Below the pieces are notes generated by a model that was not told where the DNA came from, did no database searches, and saw nothing but the letters and a program-made list of their open reading frames with translations. The position numbers were made by a program, and so were the translations under genes. From Promethearchaeota archaeon (lineage in GTDB: Archaea; Asgardarchaeota; Lokiarchaeia; Sigyniarchaeales; SOKP01), in contig JBHLNF010000019.1 of NCBI GenBank assembly GCA_048937405.1, forward strand, positions 1 through 46,471: 46,471 nucleotides of DNA, given 5' to 3'. Positions 35,037-44,289 of the stretch are shown here, piece by piece (within the stretch, counting starts at the first letter, position 1; the number at the start of each line of letters is the position of its first letter).

Positions 35037-37703
35037 TTGAGTGTTCCTTCAAGAAATTTTTTCATTGTTATAGATAGAAATCGTGATCATAGAAAAGAAA
35101 TACTTTTCAATGTAAATTTTTTCTACCTAAAATCATTTAAGAAAAAGCGGTTCACATTTACATATATAAATGAACCATTCTTTAAGGGTACTGTATTAAT
35201 TGGGTCAGATTTTAAAAATAAAATAAGACCTCTCAATTTTATTAAAATTGATAATGATGGAAACTCTTATCCAATCGATCCGCGTTTACTTAAAAAGTTT
35301 ATTATTTCAGATAAAAATAAATTTATTGCTTTTTCAAACCAAACTAGACCTGAAGATGTAGGACAAGTTAAAGATATGTTAAGTAGTTTTCAATTTGATA
35401 AGGAAAAAATTATTGATTTAACTGTATGTGATTCATGTTTAGATAAAAAAAAGTTTACATTCCTAAGCAAAAATATTCAAATTAAATCTTTAAAAAATCA
35501 AATAATATGCTCTGAATGCTCTTATGATATCGTTCTTAATAGAATCAAGTTAACAGGGATGATCTCTAAAGAGAAAATCAGTCCTAAGTTCAAGAATTTC
35601 CTTATGCATATGATTCTCAAATTTAAAGATATTAAAAAGGTAATTGATGTTTTTAAAGCTGATTTTGATCCTACAAGCTCCAGTGATATAACCTTATATG
35701 ATATTGAAAAGACACCCACAATTAGTAAAAAATATCTTAATCAAAGAATAGACAACCTTGACATTCCTACAGAGTTTAAAGAAATACTGAGGTGCTTAAA
35801 TTTAACTATTTTATTACCAATTCAGGCAATTTCTATTGAAAAAGGGTTATTGACAGAACGAAATAATCAATTAATTATGGCTCCAACCAGTGGAGGTAAA
35901 ACTTTAGTAGGAGAGTTAGCCGGAATATCAAAAGTGTTAAATAATAGAAATGCTAAAATGTTATATTTAGTACCAATTGTAGCTTTAGCTAACATCAGAA
36001 CAGAAGAATTTAAAGAAAAATATAAAACAATTGATCTAAATGTAATAAAAAGAGTTGGGGAATCCTTATTTGGTAAAAAAGAGGAAGATAACATTAAATA
36101 TTTAGCTAATGCTCATGTGATTATTGCTACTTATGAAGCAATTGATTATATCTTAAGAAGTGGGAATATAGAATTTCTAGGAAATATTGGAACAATAATC
36201 ATTGATGAAATTCAAACATTAATTGATCAAGAACGGGGATTTATATTAGATGGTTTAATATCCCGATTAAAAACGCAATTTAATTCTCAATTTCTATATT
36301 TGAGTGCAACCTTAGGAGAACCAGAGGTGTTATCCGTAAAATTAAACTGTGAATTAATTAGATATGAAAATCGTCCAGTTCCAGTCGAACGTCATTTATT
36401 AATGTGTCTAAATGAAACTCAAAAACAAAAATATATTTTTAGCTTAATTAAAGCTGCTTTTTCTAAAAAATCGATTTATGGATTTAAAGGTCAATCGATA
36501 GTATTCACAAATACTCGTAAAAAGTGTGAATCAATATCATTATATTTGCAGAATAGAAATCTTAAAGTAGTTGCTTACCATTCTGGATTAACAAACGAAG
36601 AAAGAAAAAAAATTGAAGAAGATTTTCAATCTCAGAAAATTATGGGAGTGGTTGCAACTGCCGCTTTAGCAGCAGGGGTTGATCTTCCAGCAAGTCAAGT
36701 AATCTTTGAGTCTTTAGCAATGGGTATAAATTGGTTAACTGTTGCCGAATTTGAACAAATGATTGGAAGATCAGGAAGATTAAAAAAACATGAGAAGGGT
36801 TTAGCTTATATACTTGTTGAGCCTGGAAAAGTGTATTCACCCAAAATGAAAATTACAGAAGAAAATATTGCGATTAAGCTTTTAAATGGAAAGATCAAAG
36901 ATTATGAACTTATTCCTGATGAAGATAAGTCTCAAACAGAAATTCTTGCATTTATTGCTATGCTTAACGAATGGATTTCAAAAGAAACCATCTTTAAATT
37001 TTATGATAATTTAATTAATAATCATTTTGATTTTGAAGAAATTTTGAGGAAATTATTGTCTTTTAAATTGGTGCGAATTAGAGAAGACTTAAAGTTAAAA
37101 ATTACTCGTTTAGGAAGAGCCATTGCCAACTCATTTTTATCTGTTGAAAAAAGTCTTGAGATAATTAAAATCTTACAAGATAAAATTAAAAATCCTTTAG
37201 ACATTGCTTTAGACTTAGAAAATCTTAGAAATGTTTATTTATCAAAAGATTTAGTTGCCGATTTGTCAAAAAATGTTAATATGAAATATTTTTCTAATAA
37301 TTTATTCAGCGCTAGTGTGTTATCATTGATGAATGCTGATTATGTGAAAAAAAGAAAAACATTTTCACGTGATTTTATTGACTTTATTATGAAATTAACT
37401 AGTGATATATTTAATTGTACCTGTAAGGATAATCCTTATTGCGATTGTGGACGATTAAATCTTGAAAAATTAATACTTGATTTACGGGTTAAAGATAAAA
37501 TGACAATCGAAGAAATATCTAATCATTTGATTATAGAATATAAAATTATGATATTTAGGGGAGATTTGATAATGTATCTCGAAAACCTTATCTATAGTTT
37601 AGAAAGTATCAAAAATATAGCAGAAGGAATATCTAATTTAGCTGATGATTACAAAAAAGAGATAAAAGAAATACCAAACTTAATAGATAAGATCAAATAT
37701 TAG
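35037..37703 (+). CDS. archaea-specific superfamily II (Ski2-like) helicase, COG1202/MJ1401 type, with C-terminal Cys cluster
   Basis: Motifs LLPIQ, APTSGGKTLVGELAG, DEIQ, LSAT, YHSGL, TAALAAGVDLPA, QMIGRSGR. C-terminal CTCKDNPYCDCG and N-terminal CxxC...CxxC. Confidence 0.92.
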   Translation: MSVPSRNFFIVIDRNRDHRKEILFNVNFFYLKSFKKKRFTFTYINEPFFKGTVLIGSDFKNKIRPLNFIKIDNDGNSYPIDPRLLKKFIISDKNKFIAFSNQTRPEDVGQVKDMLSSFQFDKEKIIDLTVCDSCLDKKKFTFLSKNIQIKSLKNQIICSECSYDIVLNRIKLTGMISKEKISPKFKNFLMHMILKFKDIKKVIDVFKADFDPTSSSDITLYDIEKTPTISKKYLNQRIDNLDIPTEFKEILRCLNLTILLPIQAISIEKGLLTERNNQLIMAPTSGGKTLVGELAGISKVLNNRNAKMLYLVPIVALANIRTEEFKEKYKTIDLNVIKRVGESLFGKKEEDNIKYLANAHVIIATYEAIDYILRSGNIEFLGNIGTIIIDEIQTLIDQERGFILDGLISRLKTQFNSQFLYLSATLGEPEVLSVKLNCELIRYENRPVPVERHLLMCLNETQKQKYIFSLIKAAFSKKSIYGFKGQSIVFTNTRKKCESISLYLQNRNLKVVAYHSGLTNEERKKIEEDFQSQKIMGVVATAALAAGVDLPASQVIFESLAMGINWLTVAEFEQMIGRSGRLKKHEKGLAYILVEPGKVYSPKMKITEENIAIKLLNGKIKDYELIPDEDKSQTEILAFIAMLNEWISKETIFKFYDNLINNHFDFEEILRKLLSFKLVRIREDLKLKITRLGRAIANSFLSVEKSLEIIKILQDKIKNPLDIALDLENLRNVYLSKDLVADLSKNVNMKYFSNNLFSASVLSLMNADYVKKRKTFSRDFIDFIMKLTSDIFNCTCKDNPYCDCGRLNLEKLILDLRVKDKMTIEEISNHLIIEYKIMIFRGDLIMYLENLIYSLESIKNIAEGISNLADDYKKEIKEIPNLIDKIKY

Positions 37704-38902
37704 GTTATGTGGATTTCTACTACATCAAAATCTTTTAAAGCATAATCTAACCCAACCTTTTTTCGCTTTTGTCGCGCTCCTTCTCGTATTACTATAGCGT
37801 GATCGAAAGATTCATAAAAACTTCTATGGACTTTTAAAGCTACTTCTTTAATAGTAGAATTCTCATCCATTATTAATGGCTGTTGAGCAATAATTCCACT
37901 ACTCATAGTGTATATCCTGATTTTATTTAAGATTTTTAAGATTATTTCCCCAAAATCTTTAGGAAAATTTTCCTTCTGAAAGCTTGTCCCAATAATTATA
38001 GGAAATCTATCTTTATAACTAGTTTTTAAGCTGTCAAAAACATCTTGAGTATGTGATAAATCACCTTTAGTACCTAATACAATTACTTTTTTATATACTA
38101 CTGAGGGAGTTAAAGCATCAATAATATTGTCAAGAGTAATTTTACCATAAATCTTCACAATCCCATTACGCATTCCATTTTCATATACAATCTCTTTTAT
38201 TTGATCTGTTAGATCTTCCATTCCTTCAATTTTTTTGGCTTCTTTGGTTAGATAAAGAACTTGTATCTTGTTGGCACCAGTCTTTTCGATAGTAAGAGGT
38301 GGTGGTAATTGATTTATTCGAATATCTGCTTTAGAGAATTCATTTAATAGTAATTCCATCTGTTCTTCAACATCTCTCGATAGATCTATACAAAAACATA
38401 ATAGATCTGCTGCTCTACATTGTGAAAGTATTTCTTTTCCATTTCCGACTCCATCATTAGCACCTTCCATGATAGAGGGCATTTCGACTATTTGAAATCG
38501 TATTTTCTGATATAGATATATCCCAATTTCTGGTAAAGCTGTAAATTTTCCAATGTTCTCTTTCGCTGCTCCCGTTAGATAGTTTAAGATTGAAGTTTTT
38601 CCTACACCTGGAGTTTGGAAGGTACTAATTAATATTATCTGTAATCCTTCTTTTTTTATTGAAAAAGGACTGACTATTTTCTGTGTAGTTTTCTGTTTTT
38701 GTTTACGATCATCTAGTTCACGCTTCATTTTTGCTAAGCGTGATTTATTAAGTGCAACAATCTTTTCTGTTGCTTTATGTTTAGGAACTAAGGACAGAAA
38801 TTCCTCTAACTTTTTAATCCTTTCTTCTAAAGCTCCAGCATCTAAATATTCTTGATATTTCGCTTTAGCTAGGGGTGGTAAATTGGAACTCAATTTTAAC
38901 AC
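37700..38902 (-). CDS. DRG/OBG-family GTP-binding protein with TGS domain (degenerate G motifs)
   Basis: N-terminal SNLPPLAKAKY...LSLVPKHKATEK, GVGKTS, GVGNGKEILS, KIRIYT, C-terminal VGLDYALKDFDVVEIH (TGS). Confidence 0.88.
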   Translation of the reverse strand: MLKLSSNLPPLAKAKYQEYLDAGALEERIKKLEEFLSLVPKHKATEKIVALNKSRLAKMKRELDDRKQKQKTTQKIVSPFSIKKEGLQIILISTFQTPGVGKTSILNYLTGAAKENIGKFTALPEIGIYLYQKIRFQIVEMPSIMEGANDGVGNGKEILSQCRAADLLCFCIDLSRDVEEQMELLLNEFSKADIRINQLPPPLTIEKTGANKIQVLYLTKEAKKIEGMEDLTDQIKEIVYENGMRNGIVKIYGKITLDNIIDALTPSVVYKKVIVLGTKGDLSHTQDVFDSLKTSYKDRFPIIIGTSFQKENFPKDFGEIILKILNKIRIYTMSSGIIAQQPLIMDENSTIKEVALKVHRSFYESFDHAIVIREGARQKRKKVGLDYALKDFDVVEIHIT

Positions 38903-38915
38903 TATTTAATTAATT

Positions 38916-39371
38916 TTAAAATAAAGAGCGAAATCTATCTTCAGTTTTTAATCTTAAATCTCCTAAAATCTCGTTAATTCTTTTCTCAAATTGTCTAAAA
39001 TATTTAGCTTTTTTTGAAAAAATATCATTTAATGGATATCGATTGAGAAAATAAGAGATAATTCGATTCAATTGTTCTTTTACAACTGAGGCATCTGTTC
39101 CTTTTTCTATAATGGCATATGACAGCAAGGGTTGCTTATTATACACATCATCTGTAGGTAAATTAATCATTTCACAATAACATACTAGTTTAAAACTTGC
39201 TAAACTGATTACATTTATATCATCTCCAAAGACCTCGCTAGTAAAACTTTCAAGTGCGGTTAAAAAACCTGCTCGTAGGTTTGGATCTAGGACATTATCT
39301 GATGAGGTATAATATTTAATTTCAACTAAGTTTCTCATCCCTAGATTAATTCCAACTTCTAGAATTGCCAT
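38916..39371 (-). CDS. longin-like domain protein
   Basis: 151 aa. Motif DPNLRAGFLTALESFTSEVFG followed by beta strands and an LxxIxxxFLxRY...FxxF helix pattern, typical of Asgard longin-like proteins. Confidence 0.6.
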   Translation of the reverse strand: MAILEVGINLGMRNLVEIKYYTSSDNVLDPNLRAGFLTALESFTSEVFGDDINVISLASFKLVCYCEMINLPTDDVYNKQPLLSYAIIEKGTDASVVKEQLNRIISYFLNRYPLNDIFSKKAKYFRQFEKRINEILGDLRLKTEDRFRSLF

Positions 39372-39560: not shown

Positions 39561-40424
39561 TTAAGATAAATTTACCTGTTTCTTATAAGCTGCAAATGTG
39601 TTCTCACAAAGCATTGCAACTGTCATGGGTCCTACTCCACCAGGAACGGGAGTTATTTTTTGGCATTTTTCTAAAACATTTTCAAAATCTACATCACCAC
39701 ACAATTTTCCTTCAACTCGATTCATACTTACATCAATTATTATTACTCCTTCCTTAATTTTGTTCTTAGTTATGAAATTTGGTTGCCTAACAGCGGTTAT
39801 CAGGATATCTGCCTTCCGGATGTATTCATTAATATCTTTTGTTGATGTGTGGCAAATTGTAACGGTTGCATTTCTCTTTAACAACATAAAAATTAAGGGT
39901 TTTCCTACCAAATTTGATCGATTTATTATAACTACATCTTTTCCCTTAATTTCCACATTATAATATTCTAATAGTTTTATTATCCCTTTGGGTGTACAAG
40001 CTGCCAATTCTTCATTATAATCAAAGAGTTTTCCACGATTAAGTGGATGCAAACCATCGGCATCTTTTGATGATAATATTTCTTCTATAAAATCGTTAGT
40101 ATGTTCTCGTATTTTTTTGGGTAAAGGTAATTGTAGAAGTATAGCATGAGTAGTAGGATCATTATTAGCTTTACTTATTTCATCCATTAATTCATCTTTT
40201 GATATGTTTTCATCGAGTTCTATTATTTTTGATTCTATTCCAACTTCCTGACATGCTTTATGTTTATTGTTAACATAAATTTTTGAAGCACTATCCATAC
40301 CTACTAAAATTGTTATTAATTTTGGGATAATACCTGTCTTTTTTACAGCTTTAGTTATTTTATCTTTAAGTTCAGCATTTAGTTTATCTGCTAAATATTT
40401 TCCATCTAATATTTTATCTTTCAT
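39561..40424 (-). CDS. folD: bifunctional methylene-THF dehydrogenase/cyclohydrolase
   Basis: Motifs ILDGK, ASKIYVNNK, LLQLPLP, KDADG, CTPKG, RSNLVGKP, GDVDF, ITPVPGGVGPMT. Confidence 0.96.
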   Translation of the reverse strand: MKDKILDGKYLADKLNAELKDKITKAVKKTGIIPKLITILVGMDSASKIYVNNKHKACQEVGIESKIIELDENISKDELMDEISKANNDPTTHAILLQLPLPKKIREHTNDFIEEILSSKDADGLHPLNRGKLFDYNEELAACTPKGIIKLLEYYNVEIKGKDVVIINRSNLVGKPLIFMLLKRNATVTICHTSTKDINEYIRKADILITAVRQPNFITKNKIKEGVIIIDVSMNRVEGKLCGDVDFENVLEKCQKITPVPGGVGPMTVAMLCENTFAAYKKQVNLS

Positions 40425-40512: not shown

Positions 40513-41610
40513 TTATATTCTTCTTTTTCTCCAGATATATACCATTATTCCAATAAAAGCAGCAATAGATGTAAAAATTATAATTAAAATCCAATAATTA
40601 AACTCCACCATCCAAACATCTTTAGATAGACTAGAGAGGGAAGGATTTAATATCTTTAAAGTTTTAAAAGCATGATATGAAGGAATAATTGAGGATATCT
40701 TTTGTACTTCACCTTCAGTATTCTCTGAAAATCCTCCATCATTAAAATTTTGAAGGGTTAATATCCATGAAATTGTTTGAGCCTTATTCAATTCATTAGG
40801 ATCTATTAAAGAAATTGTTTTTACACATAAATATGAACTACTTAACATTGCATATTGAGTTGTACTATCTGGTAAGTATCCACCATAATTATTGATATCT
40901 ACTGAATCATTAACATATAATTGTTTAAGATAAGCTAGAGTTTTGTTAATGTTAACAATATCAGTAATATTCCATAATTGATCAAATAATAAAACCGCAA
41001 AATATGTATCTAGTAAATTAGTTGATAAACTTTGATTTCCCCCAAAACCACCATCTATATTATTACATGCCTGAATCCAATTCTTATGTTCTGGGAGGCT
41101 GTCAATAGTTACATCAATTAATGAGTAGAGTTGAATAACATAATAGGTAGAGGATAAACTAACTGAGCTGGAAGTGTTTGAGAAAGAAAACCCTCCTCCA
41201 ATTTGTTTAGTTTCATTTAAATATTGATAAATCCTGTTTTTTAGATTATCATCAATTTTATATTGCAAGATATTGAGCGATTTCATCAAATAAAATAATT
41301 TATACAATTGAACCTGATTTGTATTAAACATATTAGTTATTTCATTTTTTAAATTAGTTTGGAGTGTTTCAATTTCATGTGGATTAGATCCGTAATCATT
41401 TAATATCTCTAATGCATAAACTGTTGCTTCATAAGAAACTGATTCATTTGTACCAATTACATTGGAAAATCCAATACTTTCAATTTCATTTTCTTTAATA
41501 AAATCTAATAGATAAGATCTACGTGTTTTTCCTAATACAATCGGAATTATATTTATTGTTATTAAAAAGATAAATATTATAATAATTATATTCCGATATT
41601 TGTACTTCAT
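40513..41610 (-). CDS. secreted, membrane-anchored prenyltransferase/squalene-oxidase repeat (alpha/alpha toroid) protein
   Basis: Signal peptide; repeats GGGFS, NIDGGFG, NYGGY, LQNFNDGGFS, each followed by a (S/T)Y-x-(A/V) helix; C-terminal TM and WRKRRI. Confidence 0.8.
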   Translation of the reverse strand: MKYKYRNIIIIIFIFLITINIIPIVLGKTRRSYLLDFIKENEIESIGFSNVIGTNESVSYEATVYALEILNDYGSNPHEIETLQTNLKNEITNMFNTNQVQLYKLFYLMKSLNILQYKIDDNLKNRIYQYLNETKQIGGGFSFSNTSSSVSLSSTYYVIQLYSLIDVTIDSLPEHKNWIQACNNIDGGFGGNQSLSTNLLDTYFAVLLFDQLWNITDIVNINKTLAYLKQLYVNDSVDINNYGGYLPDSTTQYAMLSSSYLCVKTISLIDPNELNKAQTISWILTLQNFNDGGFSENTEGEVQKISSIIPSYHAFKTLKILNPSLSSLSKDVWMVEFNYWILIIIFTSIAAFIGIMVYIWRKRRI

Positions 41611-41765: not shown

Positions 41766-43289
41766 TTATAGGATGTCACTTATATCTCTGTATAATAGGT
41801 TTACATTTACTTGAAACTGTTCGTGTGTTATAAATAACTGTTGGAATGAAGGCAGACTTCCTAAAATGGCAGCACCATTAAAAGTAGCATACTGAAGATT
41901 ATCAGGAATGAAATATTTTAGTACTTTATTCGCAGATCCCATAAATTCTGAAAATTCTTGAGCTGCTGATTTCTCAATTTTTGTTTCTGGTAATTTCGTA
42001 GCTTCTAATGCTGCGATTTTTTTCCCACAATATGGACAAAAAAGAGAATCTGTATCAGGTAATTCTTTTTTGCAATGTGGACATTTTTCTTTTTCTGATT
42101 GATTTTGTTTAATTGTACCTAAATTTCCAATCTTTATTTCAGGCAATATCAATACTCCACCACATGAAGGACATCGATCTTTTCCGTCAGAAAGATCAAC
42201 TAATGTACCACAATTAGGGCATGTATCATCTTTCTTTTTTGAAATTTCAAGAGTTTGAAGTTGAATTAATTCACTCTTAACTGCGGAAAGAGGGGATACT
42301 GGTTTGGGAATAGGACCTAATTGTGATAAAAGAGGATCTAATTCAGATTCAAAACGTTCTTGAAAACCACTATAAGAAAGATTTCCTCCCGCAAATACAA
42401 TATGAGAAAGCATTTCATGCCAATAATTATTATCAATTACTTTTAAACTCTCAATGACTGCTTGAGGTATATTCATTATATTTCCGTAACCTAACATACC
42501 AGGATTAAATAAGACTTCTGGAGCTTGATAGAGAATGTAAGTGGGAACATTTATTGATGATCCATCAGGCATAGGAACTTTGAACATCTCTCCCGCTTTA
42601 GGGGGAATATTTGGATCTAAAACAAAATAACAATTCTTTTCTTTGATATCTTGGATAATTTCATCGGCAGCACTAGAAGAAATGCTTGCTCCTTCTCTCA
42701 TTAAAAGACTTTTTAAATTTTGATTAACATCTATTCCTGCAATTGGTATTTTTTGTACTGCATGTTGAAGAATTTGCCCGTTAATTATTGGTACTACCCA
42801 TGTTAGACCATCTCCACTTTCAATAACTAATCCTGTGGTTAATCCAACACTGAATAAGGAAAGTAGTGGTGTTGGCAGCATTACCAAACTCCTAACTCGA
42901 TGAGTTTCAAAAAATACACGCGCTATAAACTCTTTTGTCTCTTTTTGCATAAAAGGAGGTTCACAATAGAATACAGGATACTGTGAAAGGTTATCAATTC
43001 TAAGTAATGTGTAAAAAATATGATTTAAAATCTCATAATAACTATCCCAATCCATAATTTCTCCACGACTTAATGGATGGTTTATTTTAAGTACACCGCG
43101 CATTCGGGATACGTCATTTCCTACATAGATACTTCTAGCACTTACATCAACCATTACAGATTTATACTTTTCTGTACCAGTTATGCAAGGAAACACAAAT
43201 CTAGGGCTTGGTTCACCGGCGAATCCAACTTTTACATATGCAGAGCCAATATCAATTATAATTGGCGTTCCAGGTAGAGGCAGTGCCAT
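41766..43289 (-). CDS. actin-related protein with double zinc-ribbon insertion
   Basis: Actin motifs IIIDIGSAYVKVGFAGEPSPRFVFP, DWD, EPP, FFET, TTGLVIESGDG, AGIDV, DIKEKNCY, MPDG, APEVLFNP, IVFAGG, GFQERF, QYATFNGAAILGSL. Insert contains CPNC/CPSC/CPHC/CPYC. Confidence 0.93.
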   Translation of the reverse strand: MALPLPGTPIIIDIGSAYVKVGFAGEPSPRFVFPCITGTEKYKSVMVDVSARSIYVGNDVSRMRGVLKINHPLSRGEIMDWDSYYEILNHIFYTLLRIDNLSQYPVFYCEPPFMQKETKEFIARVFFETHRVRSLVMLPTPLLSLFSVGLTTGLVIESGDGLTWVVPIINGQILQHAVQKIPIAGIDVNQNLKSLLMREGASISSSAADEIIQDIKEKNCYFVLDPNIPPKAGEMFKVPMPDGSSINVPTYILYQAPEVLFNPGMLGYGNIMNIPQAVIESLKVIDNNYWHEMLSHIVFAGGNLSYSGFQERFESELDPLLSQLGPIPKPVSPLSAVKSELIQLQTLEISKKKDDTCPNCGTLVDLSDGKDRCPSCGGVLILPEIKIGNLGTIKQNQSEKEKCPHCKKELPDTDSLFCPYCGKKIAALEATKLPETKIEKSAAQEFSEFMGSANKVLKYFIPDNLQYATFNGAAILGSLPSFQQLFITHEQFQVNVNLLYRDISDIL

Positions 43290-43391: not shown

Positions 43392-43817
43392 TTATTTTTT
43401 CATATATTCAAGAAGTTTTTTGATGATCTCATTTTGCATAACTAAACCTATTAGTTCATTACTATCATTCACAACAGGTAATCTTTGTATTTTCTTCCCT
43501 AACATCATCTCAATTACATACATTAAAGTATCATTTTTTTTGACAACAAATGGCTCTAGAGTCATTAAATCCTTAACAGTTGTATCAGGAGTATCAACAC
43601 TCATCGCGAATCTTGCTAAGCGTATATCTCTTTGCGTAATGATTCCAACTAGATGCATATTCTTACGATCTTTTACAACAGGAAGTCCGCTAATATTTTT
43701 TCGTATCATAAGTAGCTCAGTAGCACTAATTTTTTCATTTGGAAATGTAAATAATGGGTCTTTTATCATGATATTTGATACTTTTATTTCACTAAATTCT
43801 TTTAGGTTATCTTCCAT
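43392..43817 (-). CDS. CBS-domain pair protein
   Basis: Motifs VSNIM, ISGLPVV, LVGIITQRDI, VKDLM, IQRLPVV, LIGLV. Confidence 0.92.
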   Translation of the reverse strand: MEDNLKEFSEIKVSNIMIKDPLFTFPNEKISATELLMIRKNISGLPVVKDRKNMHLVGIITQRDIRLARFAMSVDTPDTTVKDLMTLEPFVVKKNDTLMYVIEMMLGKKIQRLPVVNDSNELIGLVMQNEIIKKLLEYMKK

Positions 43818-43908: not shown

Positions 43909-44289
43909 TTAGACGATCTTTATCGTTTCTCCTAATATTTTTTCAATTTTTGTGATTTCTCTTAGGTATTGCTTATATAAGTTTAAAATGTATTTTCCCC
44001 AATCATTTAATTTTACCCATCCTCCTCCACCACTACCTCCTTTTCCGGTTATTACAACAGCTTTACCTGTTCTTCTCTCGATTCGCTTTAAAATATTCCA
44101 AGCATATTTATAGGAATAATTGCATTCTTTTGCTGCTTGAGTTAATGAACCTTCTTCATTTTTTTCAATATTTTTTAACAATTCTGCCCAACCAGTACCC
44201 AATATACTCTTACCCTCGAATTCAAGCCAAAATTTAATACCAAATTTTATTTTAGATTTTAACTCTTCAATATTGGGTTGAGTTTCCAT
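43909..44289 (-). CDS. modE: stand-alone ModE-type winged-HTH transcriptional regulator
   Basis: Motifs KFWLEFEG, LLKNIE, GSLTQAAKECNYSYKYAWNIL, GKGGSGGGG. No molybdate-binding TOBE domains. Confidence 0.8.
   Translation of the reverse strand: METQPNIEELKSKIKFGIKFWLEFEGKSILGTGWAELLKNIEKNEEGSLTQAAKECNYSYKYAWNILKRIERRTGKAVVITGKGGSGGGGWVKLNDWGKYILNLYKQYLREITKIEKILGETIKIV

What the first reader, a model, noticed from the sequence alone, without database searches (positions are those of the whole stretch)
41766..43289. Actin-related protein with a ~130-aa double zinc-ribbon insert and non-canonical catalytic residues
Seen: a complete actin fold interrupted at about 41930-42320 by a linker and four CxxC pairs (CPNC, CPSC, CPHC, CPYC; 42027-42221). 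From recalled alignment, the insert sits in the subdomain-3 loop equivalent to actin ~320-327. Positions equivalent to actin Q137 (IQAVLSL, here PTPLLSL), H161 (THTVP, here TWVVP) and H73 (EHG, here SRG) are substituted, while the phosphate loops DIGS and ESGDG are retained. Inference: this is not the canonical Lokiactin but an Arp-like paralogue that binds nucleotide, probably hydrolyses it poorly, and uses Zn ribbons for protein or nucleic-acid docking. It could be an Asgard nucleator, capping or chromatin-associated Arp analogue.
Basis: partly seen in the sequence, partly recalled or inferred. Interest (0 to 1): 0.8.

Follow-up and report, generated by a model that had tools for sequence, protein, structure and literature searches.

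The report
Asgard actin paralogue with zinc-ribbon insert
This is a real, strongly conserved actin-related protein of one order of Asgard (Loki-type) archaea that carries a zinc-ribbon module spliced into a surface loop, has lost key ATP-hydrolysis residues, and is always encoded next to a membrane-anchored surface protein, so it may tie the archaeal actin cytoskeleton to the cell envelope.

Summary
Window 41766-43289 (-) encodes a 507-aa actin-family protein. About 135 aa, holding four invariant CxxC pairs, are inserted between actin residues 320 and 326. Gln137, His161 and His73 are replaced by Thr, Trp and Arg.

It is not an assembly chimera. More than 300 homologues share the length and architecture. 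The gene is in 126 of 133 genomes of its GTDB family and 17 of 19 in the order's other families. It was not found in other orders. Contigs from two studies span both junctions.

It is not Lokiactin; the genome has two of those. It forms its own well-supported clade. The 'Ca. Lokiarchaeum ossiferum' orthologue is UYP44711.1, one of the published "ARPs", with one ribbon only. No searchable paper mentions the insert.

The AlphaFold2 core is confident and most like actin. The ribbons sit on low-confidence linkers. The subdomain-3 face around the insert is remodelled, while D-loop and cleft elements are conserved.

A cluster of ModE-like HTH, this protein, a signal-peptide/TM-anchored prenyltransferase-like toroid protein and FolD recurs in most sampled genomes across the order.

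My best reading is a poorly hydrolysing adaptor ARP linking Lokiactin to an envelope-associated partner. Function is untested. This scan reached the same reading earlier on other DNA.

The parts
41766..43289 (-). Gene for the zinc-ribbon actin-related protein (ZnR-ARP), 507 aa plus stop
   Evidence: ORF list and translation. Pfam Actin 3.6e-65. More than 300 homologues of 502-512 aa with the same architecture.
42324..43289 (-). N-terminal actin core, aa 1-322: subdomains 1, 2, 4 and most of 3. It includes phosphate loop 1 (DIGS), phosphate loop 2 (ESGDG), a full-length D-loop, and T140 / W164 / R75 in place of Gln137 / His161 / His73.
   Evidence: HMMER alignment to solved actins. AF2 pLDDT above 90 over most of this part. 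Family-wide residue table.
41919..42323 (-). Insert of about 135 aa (aa 323-457), lying between the equivalents of actin residues 320 and 326
   Evidence: Break points of the HMMER alignments. An insert at the same site in all 21 order-level orthologues aligned. Logan contigs from two studies span both junctions without differences.
42150..42230 (-). Zinc ribbon 1 (aa 354-380; CPNC ... CPSC), present in every orthologue aligned
   Evidence: Cys invariant among close orthologues. Order-level pairwise identity 0.46, the same as the core at 0.48; net charge -3. AF2 pLDDT 66-71.
42015..42089 (-). Zinc ribbon 2 (aa 401-425; CPHC ... CPYC), absent in some lineages
   Evidence: Best Pfam Zn_ribbon_3 stretch at 402-425. 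Missing in the family-f4 lineage and in the Lokiarchaeum genus, including UYP44711.1.
41940..41966 (-). Short conserved acidic-aromatic motif (AAQEFSEFM, aa 442-450) in the third linker
   Evidence: E445 and F446 are at least 90% conserved in the 137-sequence alignment. Acidic EF/EY-type stretches sit at the same place in distant orthologues. AF2 gives a low-confidence helix at 442-451.
41769..41918 (-). C-terminal actin core (aa 458-507), closing subdomains 3 and 1
   Evidence: Second HMMER stretch, query 456-494 to actin ~326-363. AF2 pLDDT 92-94.
40513..41610 (-). Downstream partner gene: a 365-aa prenyltransferase-like alpha/alpha-toroid protein with an N-terminal signal/TM helix, a C-terminal TM helix and a 5-8-aa basic tail
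   Evidence: Pfam Prenyltrans 3e-19. AF2 pLDDT 90, with 12 toroid helices plus terminal TM helices. Best folds are RabGGTase and FTase beta subunits. It lies next to the ARP gene in 14 of 15 order-level genomes inspected outside the close-orthologue loci and on the same contig at neighbouring coordinates in the genome tables.
43909..44289 (-). Upstream small ModE-N-type winged-HTH gene. It directly abuts the ARP gene in other families; a CBS gene is interposed in the close (61-80% identical) orthologue loci of this family but not in its genus g2
   Evidence: NCBIfam ModE_repress domain 9.6e-17, below its cut-off. BLAST hits in the upstream ORF of L011, L012, L018, L019, L020 and L048.
43392..43817 (-). 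CBS-pair protein gene between the HTH and ARP genes (not seen there outside this family)
   Evidence: Pfam CBS 1.9e-26. Present at this position in L006, L007, L009 and L010. At the same position L008 has a 140-aa gene with no Pfam hit on record. No such gene stands there in L027, a genome of the same family (genus g2), or in the f2 and f3 loci.
39561..40424 (-). FolD gene, the last conserved member of the HTH-ARP-PT-FolD block
   Evidence: Pfam THF_DHG_CYH. Follows the PT gene in L021, L022, L023, L025, L026, L028 and L050.

Best explanation
The gene encodes a lineage-specific actin-related protein found across one GTDB order of Lokiarchaeia, the order that also holds 'Ca. Lokiarchaeum ossiferum'.

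Shown: it keeps a complete, actin-like fold and most adenosine- and phosphate-binding residues. It has lost catalytic Gln137 in every member and His161 in most. Its barbed-end subdomain-3 surface is remodelled. From that surface a zinc-ribbon module on long, poorly conserved, low-confidence linkers emerges.

Inferred: it binds nucleotide but hydrolyses it slowly or not at all, so it acts as a structural adaptor rather than a treadmilling polymer. Its conserved D-loop, the invariant SD2 'MRGVL' and its target-binding cleft let it dock on Lokiactin, most simply at or near a filament's barbed end. The flexibly tethered, acidic ribbon 1 then recruits a protein partner.

The gene almost always sits in an HTH-ARP-surface-protein block, so the partner or process is probably at the cell envelope. 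That would couple the cytoskeleton to a type-I alpha/alpha-toroid surface protein whose cytoplasmic tails are short and basic.
For: Reality and conservation: more than 300 homologues share length and architecture. All 8 Cys are invariant among close orthologues. The gene is in 126/133 genomes of its own family and 17/19 in the three sister families. Contigs from two studies span the junctions.

Fold: AF2 gives mean pLDDT 80.5, core above 90, ribbons 65-71 and linkers below 50. The top 50 Foldseek matches are all actins with TM about 0.9. VIA-align ranks actin first at Z 44.3 with 35% identity, ahead of every Arp.

Separate paralogue: SH-aLRT 99 for the clade with the insert removed from the alignment.

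Catalytic loss: Gln137 is Thr, Ser or Ala in all members; His161 is Trp in f1 and variable elsewhere; Ser14 is mostly Glu (sometimes Gln) outside f1. D11, G13, K18, G156, G158, K213, E214, G301 and G302 are kept.

Remodelled barbed face: only 1/20 identical to the genome's own Lokiactin at actin 283-294 and 320-327, against 35% overall. The D-loop is 7/15 identical, 'MRGVL' is invariant order-wide, and the cleft is conserved within the family.

Insert anatomy: ribbon 1 is as conserved as the core (0.46 vs 0.48) and acidic, while the linkers score 0.13-0.25.

Context: ARP and PT genes are adjacent in families f1-f4 even at 34-51% ARP identity and 21-37% PT identity. The PT protein is a confident toroid between two TM helices with basic termini.

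Expression: the L. ossiferum orthologue UYP44711.1 is transcribed below Lokiactin level in RT-qPCR (PMC9834061; primer mapped).
Against: There are no biochemical data: ATP binding, hydrolysis, zinc binding, polymerisation and partners are all inferred.

The cytoplasmic tails of the surface protein are only about 5-8 residues, which is little to dock on.

FolD, a metabolic gene, is conserved in the same block, so part of the synteny may be historical or regulatory rather than functional.

One genome of family f4 (G278) has no detectable PT gene downstream of the ARP.

The D-loop is conserved only about as well as the protein average at order level (0.58 vs 0.61), so Lokiactin docking is not specifically supported.

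Actin residues 326 and 328 are surface-exposed in F-actin (established knowledge). A long-linkered insert at this site might therefore be tolerated in a polymer, so the capping or terminal role is not forced.

I had no model coordinates and no complex prediction.
Confidence: 0.4

Rival explanations
1. It is a filament-forming actin in its own right, as a homopolymer or a co-polymer with Lokiactin. The remodelled SD3 face has co-evolved with its SD4 partner surface. The zinc ribbons decorate the outside of the filament as docking sites, roughly where tropomyosin lies on F-actin.
For: It has a full-length D-loop, a plug-length segment and a cleft that are all well conserved within the family (0.92, 0.77 and 0.87 against 0.84 overall). 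The core is closer to actin than to any Arp in both sequence and structure. Linkers of about 30 aa on each side could route the ribbons out of a longitudinal interface.
Against: The catalytic Gln137 is lost everywhere, and His161 and Ser14 in most lineages. That is unusual for dynamic actin polymers. The SD3 longitudinal contact region shows the lowest identity to the genome's own Lokiactin of the interface sets compared, 1/20. RT-qPCR in L. ossiferum puts the orthologue well below Lokiactin (PMC9834061), and that study attributed the cytoskeletal filaments seen by cryo-ET to Lokiactin.
Confidence: 0.25
2. It is a nucleic-acid- or chromatin-associated ARP. The zinc ribbons, which resemble RpoP, L37ae and Spt4-type ribbons, bind DNA, RNA or the transcription machinery. 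The adjacent ModE-type HTH protein would be its DNA-binding adaptor, in analogy to nuclear Arps or to ParM-ParR type segregation pairs.
For: There are weak NCBIfam hits of the ribbons to L37ae, RNAP subunit P and a putative Zn-ribbon RNA-binding protein, at E 4e-4 to 4e-3 and all far below cut-off. JGI labels one relative 'actin-related protein/RPABC4/Spt4'. A small wHTH gene abuts the ARP gene across most of the order.
Against: Ribbon 1, the universally kept one, has net charge -3, ribbon 2 has +1, and the insert as a whole is not basic. The HTH protein is a common ModE-N-type regulator that is just as likely to control the operon. A CBS gene separates it from the ARP gene in much of family f1. 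There is no centromere-like repeat or plasmid context. The zinc-ribbon hits are generic.
Confidence: 0.12
3. It is an assembly or annotation artefact: a chimeric contig, or a fusion of an actin gene with a zinc-ribbon gene.
For: None found.
Against: The same architecture occurs in hundreds of independent assemblies, including closed genomes. The reading frame is unbroken and the actin C-terminus resumes after the insert. Contigs from two studies cross both junctions with 0 differences.
Confidence: 0.01

Closest known systems
Lokiactin / eukaryotic actin (Pfam PF00022)
   Same: Same fold from end to end: TM about 0.9 and VIA Z 44.3 to actin. Both phosphate loops, the adenosine-site residues K213, E214 and G302, a D-loop of actin length, the target-binding cleft and a plug-length segment are all present.
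   Different: It is only 35% identical to the genome's own Lokiactin, whereas Lokiactin is about 59% identical to eukaryotic actin. It forms a separate clade. Gln137, His161 and His73 are replaced. The SD3 longitudinal face is rewritten, and about 135 aa of zinc-ribbon insert sit at actin 320-326.
Asgard 'ARPs' / asgardactin clades (Rodrigues-Oliveira et al. 2023, PMC9834061; Da Cunha et al. 2022, PMC8850707)
   Same: It belongs to this loosely defined set. The L. ossiferum orthologue is UYP44711.1, one of the three non-Lokiactin homologues placed among ARPs and measured by RT-qPCR. I identified it by the exact match of the published primer 361F in L011.
   Different: Those papers treat the proteins only as branches of a tree. 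I found no mention of the zinc-ribbon insert, the lost catalytic residues or the conserved gene neighbourhood in the searchable literature. The L. ossiferum protein has only one ribbon, while most of the order has two.
Eukaryotic Arps with functional insertions (Arp3, Arp5, Arp8; Arp4 as a non-hydrolysing ATP binder)
   Same: The principle is the same: an actin fold kept as a scaffold, catalysis relaxed, and lineage-specific loops or insertions giving partner binding. Structural similarity is high, with Arp4 at Z 40.0, Arp3 at 39.2 and Arp8 at 33.7.
   Different: Sequence identity to these is 17-25%, against 35% to actin. None is known to me to carry a zinc ribbon (own knowledge, not tested). 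Orthology to any Arp1-10 class could not be tested, because no named Arp sequences were available for the tree.
Double zinc ribbon, DZR (PF12773) and Zn_ribbon_3 (PF13248)
   Same: Two C-x2-C ... C-x2-C knuckle pairs score above the Pfam cut-offs: DZR 29.6 against 27.3 and Zn_ribbon_3 42.8 against 27.
   Different: Here the module is inserted inside another domain's loop on long linkers. It does not stand at a terminus or alone. The family gives no function.

Membership tests
Actin family (PF00022) | Profile match above the curated cut-off | tested here: met
   220.6 bits against a cut-off of 27. phmmer to solved actins gives 1e-66 to 1e-60.
Actin family (PF00022) | Four-subdomain actin fold with both phosphate loops and the adenosine site | tested here: met
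   AF2 core pLDDT above 90. Foldseek TM about 0.9 to actins. VIA Z 44.3. DIGS, ESGDG, K213, E214 and GG(N) are retained.
Lokiactin (canonical Asgard actin) | Branches within the Lokiactin clade, sister to eukaryotic actin | tested here: not met
   In the tree built with the insert removed, the ZnR-ARP clade has SH-aLRT 99 and the Lokiactin clade has 100, and they are separate.
Lokiactin (canonical Asgard actin) | About 60% identity to eukaryotic actin, with catalytic Gln137 and His161 present | tested here: not met
   Lokiactins of this order are 58-61% identical to a fungal actin and keep Q137 and H161. This protein is 35% identical to its own Lokiactin and has T140 and W164.
Eukaryotic Arp classes (Arp1-Arp10) | Orthology to one class in a phylogeny | tested here: inconclusive
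   No named Arp sequences could be brought into the tree. By structure and identity every solved Arp ranks below actin (Arp4 Z 40.0 at 22%, Arp3 39.2 at 24%, Arp8 33.7 at 18%). The published tree places the L. ossiferum orthologue 'with other ARPs' without a class (PMC9834061).
Arp2/3-type nucleator | Paired Arp2 and Arp3 plus ARPC1-5 scaffold subunits | not tested
   I did not search for ARPC homologues. The genome's other actin paralogues (L003, L005) are not adjacent to this gene.
Double zinc ribbon (PF12773) / Zn_ribbon_3 (PF13248) | Two pairs of CxxC knuckles per ribbon, scoring above the cut-off | tested here: met
   DZR 29.6 against 27.3 and Zn_ribbon_3 42.8 against 27. The eight Cys are invariant in close orthologues.
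Double zinc ribbon (PF12773) / Zn_ribbon_3 (PF13248) | Zinc is actually bound | not testable with these tools
   This needs metal analysis of purified protein.
ParM/ParR-like actin segregation pair | Actin-like ATPase with an adjacent DNA-binding adaptor and a centromere, usually on a mobile element | tested here: inconclusive
   An adjacent small HTH gene is present, but it is ModE-N type. The context is chromosomal. ParM-type folds rank far lower, at Z 19-21. I did not search for a centromere-like repeat.

The most novel reading that the evidence does not exclude
ZnR-ARP is a dedicated membrane-cytoskeleton linker of Lokiarchaeales. It would be a non-hydrolysing actin paralogue that sits on Lokiactin filaments, probably at barbed ends. 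Through its zinc-ribbon and acidic insert it would anchor them beneath a co-encoded type-I surface toroid protein. That would be a prokaryotic analogue of eukaryotic adhesion or cortex coupling, built from an actin fold itself rather than from a separate adaptor.
Probability: 0.2. Interest if true: 0.85.

Novelty: new variant of a known kind. Interest (0 to 1): 0.6.

Why it matters
[quoted passage not shown] Lokiactin, profilin and gelsolin have been studied, but the Asgard "ARPs" are still only branches on trees.

This one is single-copy and nearly universal in the order that holds cultured 'Ca. L. ossiferum'. A closed genome of the size of 'Ca. P. syntrophicum' (not verified) also carries it. 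It is under strong purifying selection. It shows a clear structural innovation (a domain inserted in the barbed-end face), clear loss of catalytic residues, and a conserved gene partner at the cell surface.

That makes concrete hypotheses testable in existing cultures and with recombinant protein: capping or anchoring, envelope coupling, and ARP specialisation arising independently of eukaryotic Arps.

Tried and rejected
1. Literature. Nine full-text searches combined Asgard, Lokiactin, ARP, zinc ribbon, insert, asgardactin and HC1 actin. None found a paper describing the insert. Many key papers are not in the library, so this is not proof that the insert is undescribed.

2. Arp placement. I could not obtain named Arp1-10 sequences. 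The top 150 representatives are unnamed or odd actins, and 20 cluster look-ups gave only actins, Anaeramoeba actin-related proteins and metagenomic 'actin-related' labels. The phylogeny therefore lacks eukaryotic Arps.

3. The recalled idea that Arp3 carries an insert at this same loop could not be checked. The search for Arp3 + beta15 + insert returned only irrelevant papers.

4. The ESM Atlas look-up with the insert alone gave no usable hit.

5. Expression: no RNA holder is listed for this DNA. Only DNA contigs could be laid.

6. The intergenic regions are too AT-rich (about 28% GC) to read archaeal promoters or terminators by eye. I did not use the sigma-70 scan tool because it does not apply to archaea.

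7. The chimera or fusion artefact is rejected.

8. I considered and rejected the downstream toroid protein being a cytoplasmic protein prenyltransferase. Both of its termini are TM helices with basic ends, it has 4-8 N-glycosylation sequons, and it is only 12-17% identical to prenyltransferase beta subunits. I did not check its catalytic zinc ligands.

9. No model coordinates were available, so I could not measure contacts between the insert and the core.
Full report
**Observation.** The minus-strand ORF at 41766-43289 encodes 507 aa.
- Pfam finds Actin (3.6e-65, aa 9-321 plus a C-terminal piece). It also finds generic zinc-ribbon families in aa ~351-426: Zn_ribbon_3 at 3e-11 and DZR at 8e-7.
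- phmmer against solved structures gives actins at 1e-66 to 1e-60. The best hit is the 'HC1 actin' 9wc4. No Arp appears among the 60 best distinct sequences.
- The alignments stop at query 320-322 (actin 320) and resume at query 456 (actin ~326). The insert is therefore about 135 aa, nt ~41919-42323, in the subdomain-3 loop.
- The eight cysteines run from C357 to C421, which is nt 42027-42221.
- The same alignment fixes T140 = Gln137, W164 = His161 and R75 = His73. DIGS and ESGDG are retained.

**Is it real?** Yes.
- A search of 5.8 billion proteins returned 322 homologues. The best 120 are nearly all 502-512 aa and all carry Actin plus zinc-ribbon Pfam hits. They come from many Promethearchaeota/Lokiarchaeota MAGs.
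- In 20 orthologues of 61-86% identity all eight Cys are invariant and the insert length is constant.
- The exhaustive representative search adds relatives at 40-49% identity that have the same insert.
- I searched 399 genomes of the phylum with the C-terminal 212 aa. The gene is in 126/133 genomes of the window's GTDB family and in 17/19 genomes of the three other families of the order. It is in 0/7 genomes of other orders of the class. Elsewhere there are only marginal hits (E about 1e-6), which may be generic zinc-ribbon or actin C-terminal matches and were not inspected.
- Full-length orthologues from those families are 34-51% identical over the whole length, insert included.
- Logan contigs from two studies cross both insert junctions with no differences.
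- The chimera hypothesis is refuted.

**What it is not.** It is not Lokiactin.
- The genome has five actin-family genes. Two are Lokiactins, 58-59% identical to a fungal actin. The third is a 374-aa paralogue, the fourth is this one, and the fifth is a divergent 405-aa paralogue.
- A maximum-likelihood tree with the insert columns removed gives four separate, supported clades. ZnR-ARP has SH-aLRT 99. Lokiactin has 100 and groups with eukaryotic actins. The other two each have 100.
- The tree has no named eukaryotic Arps, so orthology to an Arp class is open.
- By structure the core is nearest to actin (VIA Z 44.3, 35% identity). It ranks ahead of Arp4 (40.0), Arp3 (39.2), Arp8 (33.7) and crenactin (33.4). 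All 50 top Foldseek matches are actins at TM about 0.9.

**Link to published work.** One closed 6.03-Mb genome of the order is 'Ca. Lokiarchaeum ossiferum'. The published RT-qPCR primer 361F for GenBank UYP44711.1 matches its orthologue exactly (primers from PMC9834061). The family is therefore one of the three 'ARPs' that Rodrigues-Oliveira et al. placed in their tree and found transcribed below Lokiactin. Da Cunha et al. split 'asgardactins' into five clades (PMC8850707). Neither paper mentions a zinc ribbon, and nine full-text searches found none that does.

**Anatomy of the insert.**
- After the SD3 helix comes a conserved 'QLGPIPxP'. Next is a roughly 30-aa linker with a weakly predicted helix.
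- Ribbon 1 follows (D-T/N-C-P-x-C-G ... C-P-x-C-G). It is present in every orthologue and is as conserved as the core at order level (0.46 vs 0.48). Its net charge is -3.
- A variable linker leads to ribbon 2, which has net charge +1. Ribbon 2 is absent in the basal f4 lineage and, nested among two-ribbon forms, in the Lokiarchaeum genus. It has therefore been lost at least once.
- A last variable linker holds a short conserved acidic-aromatic motif (A-x-E-F, aa 442-450).
- AlphaFold2, run on a 137-sequence alignment, gives pLDDT above 90 for the core, 65-71 for the ribbons and below 50 for the linkers. This fits a flexibly tethered module rather than one packed on the core.

**The actin core.**
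- Kept: D11, G13, K18, G156, G158, K213, E214, G301 and G302.
- Lost: Gln137 is Thr, Ser or Ala in all members. His161 is Trp in this family and T, F, Y, N, H or S elsewhere. His73 is Arg in all members. Ser14 is mostly Glu, and sometimes Gln, outside this family. R183, R206, R210 and K336 are also changed.
- It is established that Gln137 and His161 position the hydrolytic water in actin. Their family-wide loss and variability argue that hydrolysis is slow or dispensable. This is inference.
- Against the genome's own Lokiactin the protein is 35% identical overall. It is only 1/20 identical in the SD3 longitudinal-contact segments (actin 283-294 and 320-327).
- The D-loop is 7/15 identical and the SD2 'MRGVL' is invariant across the order. 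The target-binding cleft is well conserved within the family.
- So the barbed-end SD3 face is rewritten, not merely interrupted, while the pointed-end elements look functional.

**Context.**
- In three divergent orthologue loci of the window's own family (61-80% identical; L006, L009, L010) the gene order is HTH, CBS, ARP, prenyltransferase-like (PT) gene. In the two of these that extend far enough, FolD, a longin-like gene and DRG follow.
- In L008 (62% identical) the order is the same, but the gene at the CBS position has no Pfam hit on record and no HTH-sized gene stands upstream of it.
- Across the other families everything beyond HTH-ARP-PT-FolD changes, but that block persists. I saw ARP-PT adjacency in 14 of the 15 order-level genomes inspected (G130, G132-G135, G137-G139, G143, G144, G149, G279, G281; for G136 from table coordinates only). 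The exception is G278. This holds at 34-51% ARP identity and 21-37% PT identity.
- The two genes overlap by 8 nt in one Lokiarchaeum-genus genome (L018).
- The genome tables put the two genes on the same contig at neighbouring coordinates in the many genomes compared.
- The PT protein has 315 homologues from the same kinds of MAGs. Its AF2 model is confident (pLDDT 90) and shows a 12-helix alpha/alpha toroid between an N-terminal and a C-terminal TM helix.
- Its best structural matches are RabGGTase and FTase beta subunits, at 12-17% identity.
- It has basic N- and C-terminal ends and 4-8 N-glycosylation sequons. By the positive-inside rule the toroid faces outward, leaving only tails of about 5-8 residues in the cytoplasm.
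- The HTH protein is a ModE-N-type winged helix.

**Interpretation.**
- The shown facts fit an adaptor ARP best. It has a nucleotide-holding but poorly hydrolysing actin fold whose pointed-end elements can engage Lokiactin. Its rewritten barbed face carries a tethered, acidic, protein-binding zinc-ribbon module.
- The conserved pairing with a surface protein points to the envelope. I give this 0.4.
- A filament-forming reading, with the ribbons on the filament surface, keeps 0.25. The D-loop, plug and cleft are conserved, and actin residues 326/328 are surface-exposed in F-actin.
- A nucleic-acid or chromatin role gets 0.12. The ribbons are not basic, and the adjacent HTH is a common regulator type.
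- An artefact gets about 0.01.
- The remainder is for functions I have not thought of.

**Novelty.** This is a new variant of a known kind. The family is in the databases, labelled 'zinc ribbon domain-containing protein' or 'actin-related protein', and it sits in a published tree. Its defining insert, its catalytic degeneration and its conserved operon appear undescribed. This scan had already reached the same reading on another genome (e1-5145367). I reproduced that independently here.

Noticed in passing
window 40513-41610 (-): The downstream gene encodes a type-I-like surface protein. It has a prenyltransferase-beta-like alpha/alpha toroid (AF2 pLDDT 90), a signal/TM helix at the N-terminus, a TM anchor with a basic RKRRI-type tail at the C-terminus, and 7 N-glycosylation sequons. 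Strong full-length homologues occur only in the same order, always beside the ARP gene. An extracellular prenyltransferase-like fold is unexplained in itself.
   Followed up: partly
window 43909-44289 (-): A small ModE-N-type winged-HTH gene is conserved immediately upstream of the ARP gene across most of the order. Its stop overlaps the ARP open frame in L. ossiferum (L011 2898-3290 against 1307-2899). It could be the operon's regulator or a partner.
   Followed up: partly
L001 (G000:C25:219075-220187) and L002 (G000:C7:555879-556991): The window's genome carries two Lokiactin genes (441 and 423 bits to Pfam Actin). The five other genomes of the order that I checked each show one. L002 branches outside the other Lokiactins. 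This may be a real duplication or contamination; the genome's contamination estimate is 5.7%.
   Followed up: no
L011 (G138) and L018 (G139); L015-L017 (family f4): The Lokiarchaeum genus, including the cultured L. ossiferum (UYP44711.1), and the f4 lineage have only the first zinc ribbon. Experiments on the cultured strain would therefore miss ribbon 2.
   Followed up: yes
G194:C12:3130-3764 and G228:C102:13297-13931: In two genomes of the same genus the ARP match is split or has in-frame stops (one TAA; and one each of TGA, TAG and TAA). These may be pseudogenes or assembly errors.
   Followed up: no
P0128, P0129, P0133: After the Asgard ZnR-ARP relatives, the next-best hits in the 1.8-billion-protein library are unusually long (742-895 aa) actin-related proteins. 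Two are from the anaerobic protist Anaeramoeba and one is an unnamed EukProt entry. They are 27-32% identical to this protein. This may be compositional, or these may be a eukaryotic group of insert-bearing ARPs.
   Followed up: no
window 37700-39371 (-): A longin-like gene plus DRG-family GTPase pair follows FolD. The pair is present in the three orthologue loci of this family that extend far enough (L006, L008, L010). It was not seen next to the block in families f2-f4. This pair was already noted by the scan as e1-5562186.
   Followed up: no
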